This document shows, in pieces, positions 42,395-47,300 of a stretch of 64,000 nt of DNA (the first letter of the stretch is position 1; each line of letters opens with the position of its first letter). Made by a program: the position numbers and the translations under genes. The notes beneath the pieces were generated by a model, which ran no database searches, had not been told where the DNA came from, and saw only the letters and a program-made list of their open reading frames with translations. Source of the stretch: Octopus vulgaris (lineage: Eukaryota); contig OX597823.1 in NCBI GenBank assembly GCA_951406725.2, forward strand, positions 13,826,001 to 13,890,000, in the 5' to 3' direction.

Positions 42395-42970
42395 GTTCGT
42401 GCTAATACGCATCTGTTTTCTTAATGTCGGCATTTTTATGTCAGTAAACTGAAGGAAAACAATGTTTGCGACGTCAGAGTTCCTGATGTCAGCAAATTTA
42501 AACATTAACATTTTTTTGTTGTCTACATTCATGATGTCAACCTTGTTGATTAATGCCAGTGTTGTACATGTCAATAACCTTATTGGCAGCCTTATTTTGC
42601 CCTACATTTAAAATATTCCACCAAGTAATTTCTTTTTACAGTATACAGCAAATTATACCAGCAAATGCTTACCACCTATTTTGACCTGTAATTCAACAAT
42701 TTCTACCCGCTAATGTCTACCTGTTATTTTGTCTAAACTTTAACTGATACCTCCGATGCCTTCTTTTTTATTAATAATGGATACAATAATGGATACAATA
42801 CATTTTAGTGGGTGGTATATAAACGACAAATTTGGACTTATTTTATCGAACTCAGAAAACTGATAAGTACTCAAATCCGGCTTAAAAGTATCATGAAAGT
42901 ATTGGGGATGGAGAAGTCGGGAATTGATTCAGTCTACATATATATATATATATATATATATATATATATA

Positions 42971-43262
42971 TTGATAGAAATGGTAAGATAACAAAAGAAA
43001 GAAAGAGACCTCGATATTATGTAAATAGAGGAATTTATCTGTAAATGTAATATGTGACATTTATTCGGTAGCCATCATAAAACTCCGAGTTTCGGATGCC
43101 GAGGTGGAAATCTACGCCGCCAAAATAACAGTCATGTTTCATAGCATTTTTCCGATGGCCGGATAACTGAAAAGATGGCGGCTTGGATTTCCACCTCGGC
43201 ATCCGAAACTCGGAGTTTTATCATGGCTACCGAATAATTGTCACATATTACATTTACAGATA
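42971..43262. mobile_element. Penelope-like foldback relic (arms ~43036-43122 and ~43176-43262) inside (TA)n
   Basis: The arms are reverse complements with few mismatches; a hammerhead-like motif overlaps the right arm; an empty paralogous site lies at 46126-46236. Confidence 0.8.
43162..43222 (+). ncRNA. Hammerhead-like motif with extended stem II
   Basis: GAUAA-CUGAAAA-GAUG(..22 nt..)CAUCc-GAAA-CUCGGAG-UU-UUAUC. Confidence 0.55.
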
Positions 43263-44399
43263 TATATATATATATATATATATATATATATATATATATA
43301 TATATATATATATATTTGAGTGGTTACTGTATTAAGTCTTGCAATTCAACTGTAGTGCCCATATTTTCCAATATGTACATCAGAAATTCTACGGTAAGAA
43401 TATAATCAGTCTTATCGATTTATTACTTGCCCGATTACTTTTCGCTATGAATCCTGGTAGAATTAAGGGTAAGATCGATATCCCCTCTCCCCCATGAGAC
43501 TTGAACTCAGTGCGTAAATGGAAGGAAATAAACATTGCACGGCATTTTGCCCGACATCATTGGGATGTTTAGCACGCGATTCTTAAGTTCGTGGAATAGA
43601 GTTTCGAATTGGGCAGGGAGTTGTGTTTTCTTTTTAGAACCTAAATGAACGTAAGTAAATATTGTAAGGCGTTTCGCTCGACGTAGTTAGGGGCTTCCGC
43701 TCACGATTATAATTCTAGGTTATTGGTTCGATTTTCGGATCGAACAGCACGGCGCGTCTTTGAGCGTAGCGCTTCATTTCACTTCGCTCCTGCCCATCCA
43801 GGCTGAGAACGGGAGTGAGCATCACCTATGTGTTATTCCTGCGATGTCACAGATGTCATGTGTTATGCTCTTAATCACCTAAACACTCCGGAAATCCGGA
43901 TCTGTTTCAGCTTCATGAGCTTGTAAGTTTGAGGTCCGTATTAATTTTATTATTCATTTACCCGCCTCACCCCGCTGCCCGCCCAACGCTTTACCGATTC
44001 TACTTTCTACTGCCTGATGTAATACTGACGACATTACAAATAGTAAGTTACAGATAGAGAACGGAACACGAGCTTAATTTCAGGGATATATAAATCTTCA
44101 GCTCTGAACATAATTGATTAGAAACGAGGTAAAAGAAAAAAAAAAGTAACGAAAAAATGTTAAAAAATTCACATCAAACAAAGTATCATCATCGTCGTCA
44201 TCGCCACCTTCATCCTAACCATCCTAACCATCATTATCATCATCACAATTGTATTTTGTCATATGAATTTAATGTAACAGAAGAGATGTTTTTGAGGAAA
44301 TCTCTCTAAAAGAATGGCTTCTTCAGCATTCAAATGTATTCTGGTTTGGAGTAATTCTCCCAAACAACTTTTTTTTTCTTGTGTGCATGTAAATTATGC

Positions 44400-47300
44400 A
44401 TACATTCATACGTACATATATATATATACATATATATATATATATATATATATATATATATATATAAATTCATACATATATATATACATATATATATATA
44501 TATATATATATATATATATATACATATACATACATACATATATTGTATATATATATATATATATATAAATATATATATATATATATATATATATATATAT
44601 ATATACATATATATACATATATATACATACATATATATATATCCAGATATATACAAACATACATATATATACACACACATGTATATTATACATTTATATA
44701 TATATACATACACACATATATATATATGTATATATATGTATGTATATATATGTATGCATATATATATATATATATATATTTATTTGTATGAATGTATGAA
44801 TGTATGTACGTATGTATATATGTATTTTGTAGGTATGTTTCATAAGTGTTTCTTCTAACGATTGCCAAGCTTAACGGTAGTAATAAAGCGAGGAAGACGT
44901 GAAGCGGGTAGGAACATGAAAATTCCTTTCAATGGCTGAATAGAAATAAGAAGCAAAAAAATATATATATACATATATATTTATATAGAGTCACAAAAAC
45001 AATAACAACGAAAGCAACTACAGCTAAGGTATTACAGCCATAAAAACAACGACAACAACGAGATTACGACGATGTTTCTATTGAAATATTTAGTCAAAAC
45101 TTTTGAAATTTAGTTCATTCATAAATCGGTTTTGTCTCCTTAAATTTATGCCACAATTTATAGCTCCAGACTTTTTGCTTGCTTTATATTCTTCCTCTTC
45201 TTTTTCTTCTTCTTCTTCTTCTTCTTCTTCTTCTTCTTCTTCTTCTTCTTCTTCTTCTTCTTCTTCTTCTTCTTCTTCATTTTCTTCATCTTCTTCAACT
45301 TCTCCTTCTCCTTCTCCTTCTCCTCCTCCTCCTCCTCCTCCTCCTACTCCATACAACCCTCATGTTTTCATTTTTTTTGGCGTCTTCTCTGCTGTATGTG
45401 TTTAGTAATTTGTTTAGTCATATTGTGAATGTATTTATTTCTATTGTCATGCATGCATACACACATATTTATATATATATACATATACACACATATATAC
45501 ATATGTATGTATATATGTATATATACACTAATGCATATAAATATATACAAACATATAAATACACACATATATATATGTATATGCATATGTAAATATATAT
45601 GTACATATTTATGCATTTATACATATACATATACATGTACATAAATATAAATATATATACAAATATATATGTATATATATATGAATATAGATTATATAAA
45701 CACACACATATATATATAAATATATATATGTGTGTATATGTGTATATATATATGTATATATATATATGTATGTGTATATATATATGTATATATGTATATA
45801 TATACATATATATATATATATCCTTACAAATACAGACAGGCGTGTATATATATATATATATATATATATATATATATATATATACGAGAAAGAAGCAACA
45901 AGAATGGATATATATATATATATATATATATATATATGCGTATATATTTACATATACATATAAAATAATTTATTTCCCAAATCTTTTCACCAAACTTTTA
46001 TATATTCACCCCCTCCTTTCCCTGACTAAATTATGAGGTGTGTGTGCGTTTATGTATGTATGTATGTATGTATGTATTCGTTCGCTCGCGCGCGTGTGCG
46101 TGCGTAGTTGTTTGTATGCGCCATGTCATGAAAGTACTGGCGATGGAGAAGTCGGGAGTTGATTCAGTCTCCATATATATATACATATATATATATATAT
46201 ATTTGAGTGGTTACTGTATTAAGTCATGCAATTCAATGTTCAGCTAATCTTAACTACCGTCTTGCGTGATTCCTGTTGGATACATCGCATTTCTCAATCG
46301 CGTGATACATAAATTATGCGGCTGTCATGTCTCCTGCTCACGCCATCCATATATGGACGCCATGACAGCTTGCTGGCTGCTAAAGTAATGGCGGCAAAAC
46401 ACGTGAAGGGCAGTGTGCAATAGAAGAGTTAATTACATGCTTACATCAAAATATAATTGAATCGAGAAACATAACCTTCTGCAAAGCTTTTCACTCCCTC
46501 AGTCATATATTTAATCATACACTATAACAACATATAGAGTTTCTTTGGAGTAAAAACTGTAACAGCCGTACCACCACCATCACCACCACCACCACTACTA
46601 CCACCATCGCCACCGTCACCGCCACCACCACGATCACCACCACAACGACCACCAATAACAACAACGATAATAATGATAATAATAATAATAATAGTAATAA
46701 TAACAGCAATAATAATAATAATAATAACAGTAATAATAATAATAATAATAATAATAATAATAGTAATAATAATAATGATAATAATAGTAATAATAATAAT
46801 AATAATAGTAGCAGTAGTAGTAGTAGTAGTAGTAATAATAATAACAATAATAATAATAATAATAATAATAATAATAATAATAATAATGATGATAACAATA
46901 TTAATAATAAATTTGATAATAAATCAATAAATAAATAATTTCACGTGATAAAACTAACTCATAAAGTGCAGACTTTGATAAATAAACAAATATGTTTGTG
47001 CGTGCGTCTGCGTGCGTGTATATGTGCGTTGTGCGTATATATGTGTATGTGTATGTGTGTGTGTATGTTTGTGTGCGTGTGGAAGTGTGTGTATGGTTAT
47101 ATATATTTGTGTGTATATTTACGCATGAATTGCCAAAATCGTGCGGGGGTGAAAATAATGATATATATATATATACAAATACGTATGTATGTATGTACAT
47201 GTATACGTATGTGTGTTTGTGTGTGTGTGTGTGTGTGTGTGTGTGCGTGTGCGTGTACCTGTGTATGAGAGAAAGGGAAAAAAGAAGAAAAGAAGGGGAT

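What the first reader, a model, noticed from the sequence alone, without database searches (positions are those of the whole stretch)
42891..46236. Filled and empty site pair: a ribozyme-bearing foldback inserted into a (TA)n microsatellite
Seen: the same ~110-bp cassette (tcatgaaagta.tgg.gatggagaagtcggga.ttgattcagtct.ca-(TA)n-tttgagtggttactgtattaagtc.tgcaattcaa) occurs at 42891-43349 and 46126-46236. The first has a ~290-bp palindromic insert with a hammerhead-like motif inside the (TA)n; the second has only the TA tract. Inference: this is in-window evidence that these foldback relics integrate into TA microsatellites and are not just neighbours of them.
Basis: partly seen in the sequence, partly recalled or inferred. 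Interest (0 to 1): 0.7.

Follow-up and report, generated by a model that had tools for sequence, protein, structure and literature searches.

The report
Penelope-type insertion scar in duplicated microsatellite
A 110-base stretch occurs twice, 3.2 kb apart, and one copy carries inside its TA repeat two back-to-back end pieces of a very abundant repeat with a damaged hammerhead-ribozyme motif; this is likely an ordinary insertion scar of a Penelope-type retrotransposon, a group already known to land in TA repeats.

Summary
The pair is real: the two cassette copies match at 43 of 47 and 33 of 34 bases on either side of a TA tract. The 288-bp filling is not one palindrome. It is a 64-nt unpaired tail, two 87-bp arms (4 mismatches) and a 53-nt spacer, which together are two head-to-head, 5'-truncated pieces of one linear repeat. 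In four public runs the repeat is very abundant (3,713-7,107 contigs laid against one for the flank). Other copies have their own inversion junctions, and the short end often abuts (TA)n. A type I minimal hammerhead lies on the + strand, but this copy has A at core position 8, where other copies read G, and the hairpin sequesters it, so it is predicted dead. Inverted truncated copies, a one-sided tail, a hammerhead and TA targeting are all published features of Penelope-like elements. The cassette looks like a two-copy local duplicate, not a family. Insertion is the likelier polarity, but no contig bridged either TA tract, no polymorphism was shown, and no reverse-transcriptase gene was linked. 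A clean but ordinary example.

The parts
42891..42937 (+). cassette, left half, filled copy
   Evidence: 43 of 47 identical to 46126-46172; continuous with its left flank in one contig each of X4 and X6, at single-copy depth
42938..42971 (.). left (TA)n tract, 34 nt
42972..43035 (-). 64-nt one-sided tail: 3' extension of the minus-strand piece (long end)
   Evidence: unpaired in the fold; outside the arm match; repeat-level depth in all four runs
43036..43122 (-). left arm: 5'-truncated inverted piece, lacks the 5' half of the hammerhead core
   Evidence: 87 bp, 4 mismatches to the right arm; in other copies it continues into the reverse complement of the spacer (55-107 contigs per run)
43123..43124 (.). 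2-nt linker at the head-to-head junction (inferred)
   Evidence: loose ends behind 43122 and before 43125
43125..43262 (+). plus-strand piece: unpaired 5' part plus right arm (43176-43262), ending at the short end; its last 3 nt are shared with the TA tract
43156..43229 (+). type I minimal hammerhead motif: helix I (11 bp, one bulge), core 43167-43173 with A at position 8, helix II 43174-43203, GAAA 43205-43208, 13-nt palindrome 43206-43218 in place of helix III, cleavage position 43217; predicted inactive
   Evidence: family core from loose ends
43260..43315 (.). right (TA)n tract, 56 nt
43316..43349 (+). cassette, right half, filled copy
   Evidence: 33 of 34 identical to 46203-46236
46126..46236 (+). 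empty cassette copy with a 30-nt interrupted TA tract; likely the donor of the duplicate
   Evidence: right part and flank seen in X1, X5, X9

Best explanation
A 110-bp stretch holding a short TA repeat occurs twice, 3.2 kb apart, likely by local duplication, and the TA repeat of one copy was likely cut later by the endonuclease of a Penelope-like element (PLE) and filled with two reverse-transcribed, 5'-truncated pieces of an abundant hammerhead-bearing repeat. Shown: the pieces lie head to head with both 3' ends facing a TA tract; one ends 64 nt further 3' than the other; the repeat is linear and abundant; other copies have different inversion junctions; this copy's hammerhead core differs from the family's at position 8. 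Inferred: both DNA ends primed reverse transcription, one at a long and one at a short start site in the RNA; both products stopped early and were joined with a 2-nt linker; the TA tract was split and lengthened by slippage, hiding any target-site duplication; the relic is inert. Open: whether the repeat is the pseudo-LTR of a coding PLE or a non-coding passenger of one.
For: (42500-43176 laid on X1, X4, X5, X6): the flank has one contig per run at depth 55/6.9/41/40, while 3,713-7,107 contigs were laid per run and insert depth reaches 0.7-2.3 million (summed depth, not a copy number). Of 15 joints shown (39 more hidden), 10 join the left arm to the spacer at other points, one contig per run each, and 9 of the 10 occur in two or more runs. 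Depth drops at this copy's own junction (X1: 39,318 at 43121-43143 against 500,687 and 227,639 beside it). Loose ends show the arm running on into the spacer's reverse complement (92, 55, 80, 107 contigs) and the spacer running on into other upstream sequence (25-42 contigs per row). (TA)n-rich loose ends stand at the short end 43036 in X4, X5, X6 (24, 44, 37 contigs; agreement 0.57-0.65). Depth falls from tail to spacer, clearest in X4 and X6, as 5' truncation predicts. The loose ends read the core CTGAAGA where the window has CTGAAAA. Literature: inverted 5'-truncated copy and one-sided tail (PMC8557442, PMC3846280; passages); head-to-head as the commonest arrangement (PMC3846280); minimal hammerheads with palindromic helix III in PLE repeats (PMC4209133); both strands cut and extended, two RT start sites equal to the tail ends, G8C abolishes cleavage (PMC11167929); (TA)n targets for Hydra and Naiad, including octopus families. 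Direction of duplication: the joined flanks of the filled locus share a junction-crossing 9-mer with the start of the empty copy (16 of 20,000 random sites reach this; the reverse test gives 3 nt).
Against: No RT or GIY-YIG gene was linked to this repeat (3 candidates, none at E<=0.001; weak test) and no genome was held. No contig bridged a TA tract, so neither presence/absence nor the outgroup state was shown. The tail is 64 nt against a published 30-40. Agreement of the TA loose ends is only 0.57-0.65, X1's row was not among the 24 of 594 shown, and flanks at the long end fell in the zone the tool skipped (38 loose ends dropped). Seven of the 10 skip joints have under 30 letters on the shorter side, which the tool flags as less reliable. 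Cassette divergence (5 of 81) and arm divergence (4 of 87) do not differ (Fisher p 0.74), so dates do not order the two events. The 9-mer was noticed after the fact and does not fit simple one-step priming, because the duplicate starts 5 nt upstream of it. Rfam did not detect the hammerhead.
Confidence: 0.8

Rival explanations
1. Same element, opposite polarity: the filled 459-bp block was duplicated, and one copy later lost the hairpin by slippage or single-strand annealing between the two TA tracts, leaving a clean 'empty' site.
For: An 87-bp near-perfect hairpin between two direct repeats is a classic substrate for precise deletion (established knowledge, recalled). The 9-mer clue gives the direction of copying, not what the donor held at the time. 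Divergences overlap.
Against: It needs three events instead of two. The empty tract is short and interrupted, as an old undisturbed tract would be. Templated local copies are usually short (recalled), which favours 110 over 459 bp.
Confidence: 0.1
2. One event made both: during insertion the PLE machinery or the repair of its break copied the neighbouring 110-bp stretch, so the duplicate and the filling are the same age.
For: The two divergences are indistinguishable. PLE repeats can mobilise host DNA in trans (PMC3846280, passages). An earlier unchecked note reports a copied neighbour inside such a foldback (e1-9993922).
Against: Here the host DNA lies outside both arms and stays colinear around the TA tract, which is what a later insertion into an existing duplicate gives. 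Published captures lie between the repeats.
Confidence: 0.05
3. The insert is a MITE: a non-autonomous DNA transposon with 87-bp terminal inverted repeats and a TA target.
For: Long inverted arms, no coding capacity, TA on both sides, very high abundance.
Against: The arms are not terminal: a 64-nt tail lies outside one arm. The centre differs from copy to copy and this copy's junction is rare. The arm normally runs on into the spacer as a linear unit. A hammerhead with an intact family core spans the arm-spacer border.
Confidence: 0.03
4. The pair or the filling is an assembly artefact at TA tracts.
For: No contig bridged a TA tract, and the left half of the empty copy was not covered in any of 4 runs (a hole proves nothing). 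All four runs lack one base at 42633, so the window may hold small errors.
Against: The copies differ at 5 of 81 sites and have distinct flanks. The filled copy's left flank plus left half is one contig in X4 and X6; the empty copy's right half plus flank is one contig in X1, X5 and X9.
Confidence: 0.02

Closest known systems
Inverted pseudo-LTR insertions of endonuclease-positive Penelope-like elements (Adineta vaga Penelope, PMC3846280, passages; Fig. 2 legend of PMC8557442, passages)
   Same: Head-to-head inverted 5'-truncated copy, one-sided tail, hammerhead in the repeat, AT-rich target.
   Different: No ORF in this insertion; tail 64 nt rather than 30-40; no target-site duplication can be read inside (TA)n.
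Hydra-clade PLEs, e.g. Hydra-1_Obim and Hydra-2_Amil (PMC8557442, section 11, supplement searches and part 52 of 59)
   Same: (TA)n target. The listed Hydra-1_Obim hammerhead has the same core followed by ATG at the start of stem II. Hydra-2_Amil carries the same 11-nt word around helix III.
   Different: Hydra-1_Obim's stems I-III differ in sequence, so this is another family; four other words from the insert had 0 hits in that supplement. The clade is defined by protein motifs that I could not see.
Poseidon of Anolis carolinensis, PAc (PMC11167929, parts 1-2 of 4)
   Same: Mechanistic model: both strands cut and extended, two RT start sites that define the tail, an ATG at the start of hammerhead stem II (43175 here).
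   Different: Here the frame from that ATG stops after 20 codons; PAc prefers ATT rather than (TA)n; the tail is longer here.
Animal non-LTR retrozymes (PMC7229834, passages; bioRxiv 10.64898/2026.07.22.740005, part 1 of 5)
   Same: Short, non-coding at this locus, type I hammerhead, proposed to depend on PLEs.
   Different: Retrozymes are head-to-tail tandem arrays; this locus is a head-to-head pair. Circular RNA was not tested.

Membership tests
EN+ Penelope-like element | ORF with telomerase-like RT and GIY-YIG endonuclease joined to the repeat | tested here: inconclusive
   No such ORF recognised among the 118 listed (six frames scanned against Pfam); protein search with the tail frame found nothing (weak); no genome held
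EN+ Penelope-like element | type I minimal hammerhead in the terminal repeat | tested here: met
   family core intact in loose ends; this copy mutated at position 8; not found by Rfam
EN+ Penelope-like element | inverted 5'-truncated copy, head to head, junction differing between insertions | tested here: met
   10 other junctions among 15 joints shown
EN+ Penelope-like element | optional tail on one end only | tested here: met
   64 nt, longer than the published 30-40; the short end recurs in other copies
EN+ Penelope-like element | target-site duplication | tested here: inconclusive
   hidden in (TA)n, as PMC8557442 notes for such targets
Hydra / Neptune clades | clade-specific RT, linker and endonuclease motifs | not testable with these tools
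   no linked protein
Hydra / Neptune clades | microsatellite, here (TA)n, insertion bias | tested here: met
   this locus; TA-rich loose ends at the short end in 3 of 4 runs among the rows shown, agreement 0.57-0.65; long-end flanks not visible
Hydra-1_Obim (as the same family) | same hammerhead and 3' sequence | tested here: not met
   stems differ from the row in File S2; word searches negative
Naiad PLE | lack of a complete hammerhead | tested here: not met
   complete minimal motif in the family
MITE | terminal inverted repeats at both ends and a fixed internal structure across copies | tested here: not met
   tail outside one arm; variable junctions; linear continuation
Non-LTR retrozyme | head-to-tail tandem units with a hammerhead in each | tested here: inconclusive
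   not at this locus; other copies could not be read whole
Non-LTR retrozyme | expression as self-cleaved circular RNA | not testable with these tools
   only contigs were offered

The most novel reading that the evidence does not exclude
The insert records two-ended priming on one RNA: both ends of a single cut in (TA)n start reverse transcription at two fixed sites 64 nt apart, on a non-coding, hammerhead-bearing passenger of a Penelope enzyme. Each event splits and lengthens a TA tract (30 nt empty, 34 + 56 nt filled), and the hairpin can later be lost cleanly. Thousands of such cycles would make these elements a main builder of this genome's TA microsatellites, and paralogous filled/empty pairs like this one would let the process be measured within one assembly.
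Probability: 0.2. Interest if true: 0.5.

Novelty: new member of a known kind. Interest (0 to 1): 0.2.

Why it matters
How Penelope-like elements make inverted ends and pick microsatellites is named as an open question in PMC8557442. A filled/empty pair shows the target before and after, and the long-end/short-end layout fits the two RT start sites seen in vitro (PMC11167929). But TA targeting and this anatomy are already in print, the pair is one paralogous case without polarity proof, and the ribozyme is predicted dead. Its value is as one data point in a genome-wide census.

Tried and rejected
Rfam: 0 hits at gathering level in the window; 29 sub-threshold hits in 42800-43450, none a hammerhead, rejected as hairpin and TA noise. 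No second copy of the insert and no third copy of the cassette in the window. No tRNA in the window. No RNA holder listed. Presence/absence in other runs: contigs end in the TA tracts, and the left half of the empty copy had no cover from its own locus in 4 of 4 runs, so there is no verdict. Contigs cross 43120 in all four runs (depth 260, 23, 214, 78), but they cannot be assigned to this locus. Cassette as a dispersed family: only 1 record in 4 runs hit the left half and it carried the filled locus's flank, and depth at 42891-42913 was single-copy or nil; rejected, though a filter drops some records. Protein search with the 46-residue tail frame, longer proteins only: nothing. Similarity of this tail to the tails of two other foldbacks: 25 and 215 of 500 shuffles scored as high, not accepted; the first comparison used only 12889-13003 of a tail that runs to about 13029. 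Dating the duplication against the insertion: uninformative. Look-ups of earlier findings by place and by sequence: nothing. Six paper searches listed no paper on this family; Repbase and Dfam could not be searched, supplements of the bioRxiv preprint are closed, and I read only searches and 1 of 59 parts of the PMC8557442 supplement, so the family may already be named.

Full report
Setting. The window is AT-rich animal DNA full of simple repeats; 49 pure TA tracts of 16 nt or more cover 2.8% of it. It is likely an octopus: that rests on a recalled repeat signature and on earlier unchecked notes, not on a test. No whole genome is held, so genome-wide evidence comes from two layings of public contigs.

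1. The observation. The cassette is present twice. The halves match at 43 of 47 and 33 of 34 bases and similarity ends at 42891/43349 and 46126/46236. Scores of 75 and 63 stand against shuffle maxima of 29 and 28 (30 shuffles each). The filled copy has TA tracts of 34 and 56 nt around a 288-bp insert; the empty copy has a 30-nt tract with one interruption. The insert folds at -162 kcal/mol, z -19.6. It is not wholly palindromic: 42972-43035 is an unpaired 64-nt tail, the arms are 43036-43122 and 43176-43262 (87 bp, 4 mismatches), and 53 nt lie between them.

2. What the insert is. Read on their own strands, the left piece (minus, 43122 to 42972) and the right piece (plus, 43125-43262) are two 5'-truncated parts of one sequence. 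They are joined head to head, and both 3' ends face TA. I laid 42500-43176 (flank, left cassette half, tail, one arm, spacer) on runs X1, X4, X5 and X6. The flank had one contig per run at depth 55, 6.9, 41 and 40. In total 6,281, 3,713, 5,620 and 7,107 contigs were laid, with insert depth peaking at 0.7-2.3 million. The tool warns that this is no copy number; I read it only as thousands of copies or more.

The foldback is not the unit. Behind 43122 the arm runs on into the reverse complement of the spacer in 92, 55, 80 and 107 contigs. Before 43125 and 43137 the spacer runs on into other upstream sequence (25-42 contigs per row). Depth dips at this copy's junction. Of 15 joints shown (39 hidden), 10 join the arm to the spacer at other points, one contig per run each; 9 of these 10 occur in two or more runs and 7 have under 30 letters on the shorter side. 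The other 5 are the natural linear continuation. So each insertion likely makes its own inversion. At the short end (43036) TA-rich loose ends were listed for X4, X5 and X6 (24, 44, 37 contigs; agreement 0.57-0.65); X1's row was not among the 24 of 594 rows shown. Flanks at the long end fell in the skipped zone (38 loose ends dropped).

3. The ribozyme. A descriptor search gave 2 hits in 64 kb, one at 43167-43217. The centroid fold of 43150-43235 has type I topology, with an 11-bp helix I, unpaired core, helix II and an unpaired 14-nt stretch, though it is not unusually stable (z -1.48). A 13-nt palindrome (43206-43218) stands in place of helix III, as in PLE hammerheads thought to work as dimers (PMC4209133, parts 1-2 of 4). 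The window reads CTGAAAA at the core; the loose ends of other copies read CTGAAGA. This copy has therefore lost G8, the partner of C3; G8C abolishes cleavage in the Anolis element (PMC11167929, parts 1-2 of 4), and I infer the same for G8A. The left arm lacks the 5' core. Forcing the hammerhead fold on the whole insert costs 71 kcal/mol (-90.3 against -161.4). Rfam found no hammerhead. The motif is real for the family and predicted dead here.

4. The cassette. Laying the empty site 46078-46540 on X1, X4, X5 and X9 gave 10 records. One hit the cassette's left half, and it carried the filled locus's flank. Three covered the empty copy's right part and flank. In one search the left half showed single-copy depth or none. 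The cassette therefore looks like a local two-copy duplicate, with the caveat that a filter drops records. Joining the flanks of the filled locus gives a junction-crossing 9-mer that also stands at the start of the empty copy; 16 of 20,000 random sites did as well, and the reverse test gave 3 nt. This hints that the empty copy is the donor. It was noticed after the fact and does not fit one-step priming exactly. The duplicate is present in X4 and X6, whose flank differs from the window's at several sites, so it predates that split.

5. Polarity. No contig bridged a TA tract, so presence/absence was not shown. Divergences (5 of 81, 4 of 87; p 0.74) do not order the events. Insertion after duplication needs two events; duplication of the filled block and clean loss needs three. 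The interrupted short tract in the empty copy and the family's TA-abutting ends favour insertion. I put it at 0.8, loss at 0.1, a single joint event at 0.05.

6. Mechanism. Shown: layout, abundance, variable junctions, a recurring short end, the core change. Inferred from PMC11167929 and PMC3846280 (passages): a GIY-YIG endonuclease cuts both strands in (TA)n, both ends prime reverse transcription at two start sites, both products truncate and are joined, and slippage blurs the target. PMC3846280 offers self-priming on an antisense template as another route to head-to-head structures; my data do not separate the two. My reading as a PLE scar (75%) was recorded before I saw earlier notes. Those notes repeat it for other loci and add the two-site idea and the passenger possibility; they are leads, not support.

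7. Against what is known. It works like the inverted insertions of endonuclease-positive Penelope-like elements: inverted truncated copy, one-sided tail, hammerhead and microsatellite bias are all in PMC8557442 (passages, section 11, supplement searches, part 52 of 59), which lists (TA)n for five cephalopod Naiads and Hydra-1_Obim. Formal membership is incomplete because no RT gene was linked. It is not Hydra-1_Obim, unlikely a Naiad, and not a MITE. A retrozyme-like passenger (PMC7229834, passages; bioRxiv 10.64898/2026.07.22.740005, part 1 of 5) is not excluded. The tail (64 nt) is longer than published. Six paper searches listed nothing on this family; repeat libraries were not available.

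8. Verdict. Observation confirmed with corrections; interpretation partly supported. A new member of a known kind, interest 0.2. The bolder reading, two-ended priming that builds TA microsatellites, is not excluded (probability 0.2, interest 0.5 if true).

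Noticed in passing
window 12360-13029: Unrelated foldback between TA-type tracts: 167-bp arms (12360-12526, 12722-12888) and a one-sided tail of about 140 nt. A 70-codon open frame runs through arm and tail; no Pfam hit. Same layout as the finding.
   Followed up: partly
window 33736-34596: Unrelated 860-bp palindrome with (TA)n directly on both sides and a one-sided tail of roughly 36 nt; a relaxed core search gave only loose hammerhead-like matches, and two of its words had 0 hits in the PMC8557442 supplement.
   Followed up: partly
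window 41960-42395: Perfect 30-bp inverted pair enclosing about 375 bp with a TTAGGG-type run near 42061-42095; MITE-like, no target duplication seen.
   Followed up: no
window 38390-39091 (-) and 34994-35308 (-): Non-LTR retrotransposon fragments with weak zf-RVT hits below the curated cut-off (E 0.0023 and 0.00039). The first abuts a trinucleotide repeat, like microsatellite-targeting R4/Dong elements (recalled, not tested).
   Followed up: partly
window 42822-42867: Short low-copy repeat just left of the filled cassette: depth 2-4 times single copy in all four runs.
   Followed up: no
window 42540-42769: Runs X4, X5 and X6, labelled as three organisms, share five differences from the window that X1 lacks; all four lack one base at 42633, a possible assembly error. 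The duplicate at 42891 is present in X4 and X6, so it predates this split.
   Followed up: no
window 30387-30468 (+): Second hit of my hammerhead descriptor, with loose geometry; probably chance.
   Followed up: no
window 9314-10987: Cluster of nested inverted copies of a dispersed repeat.
   Followed up: no
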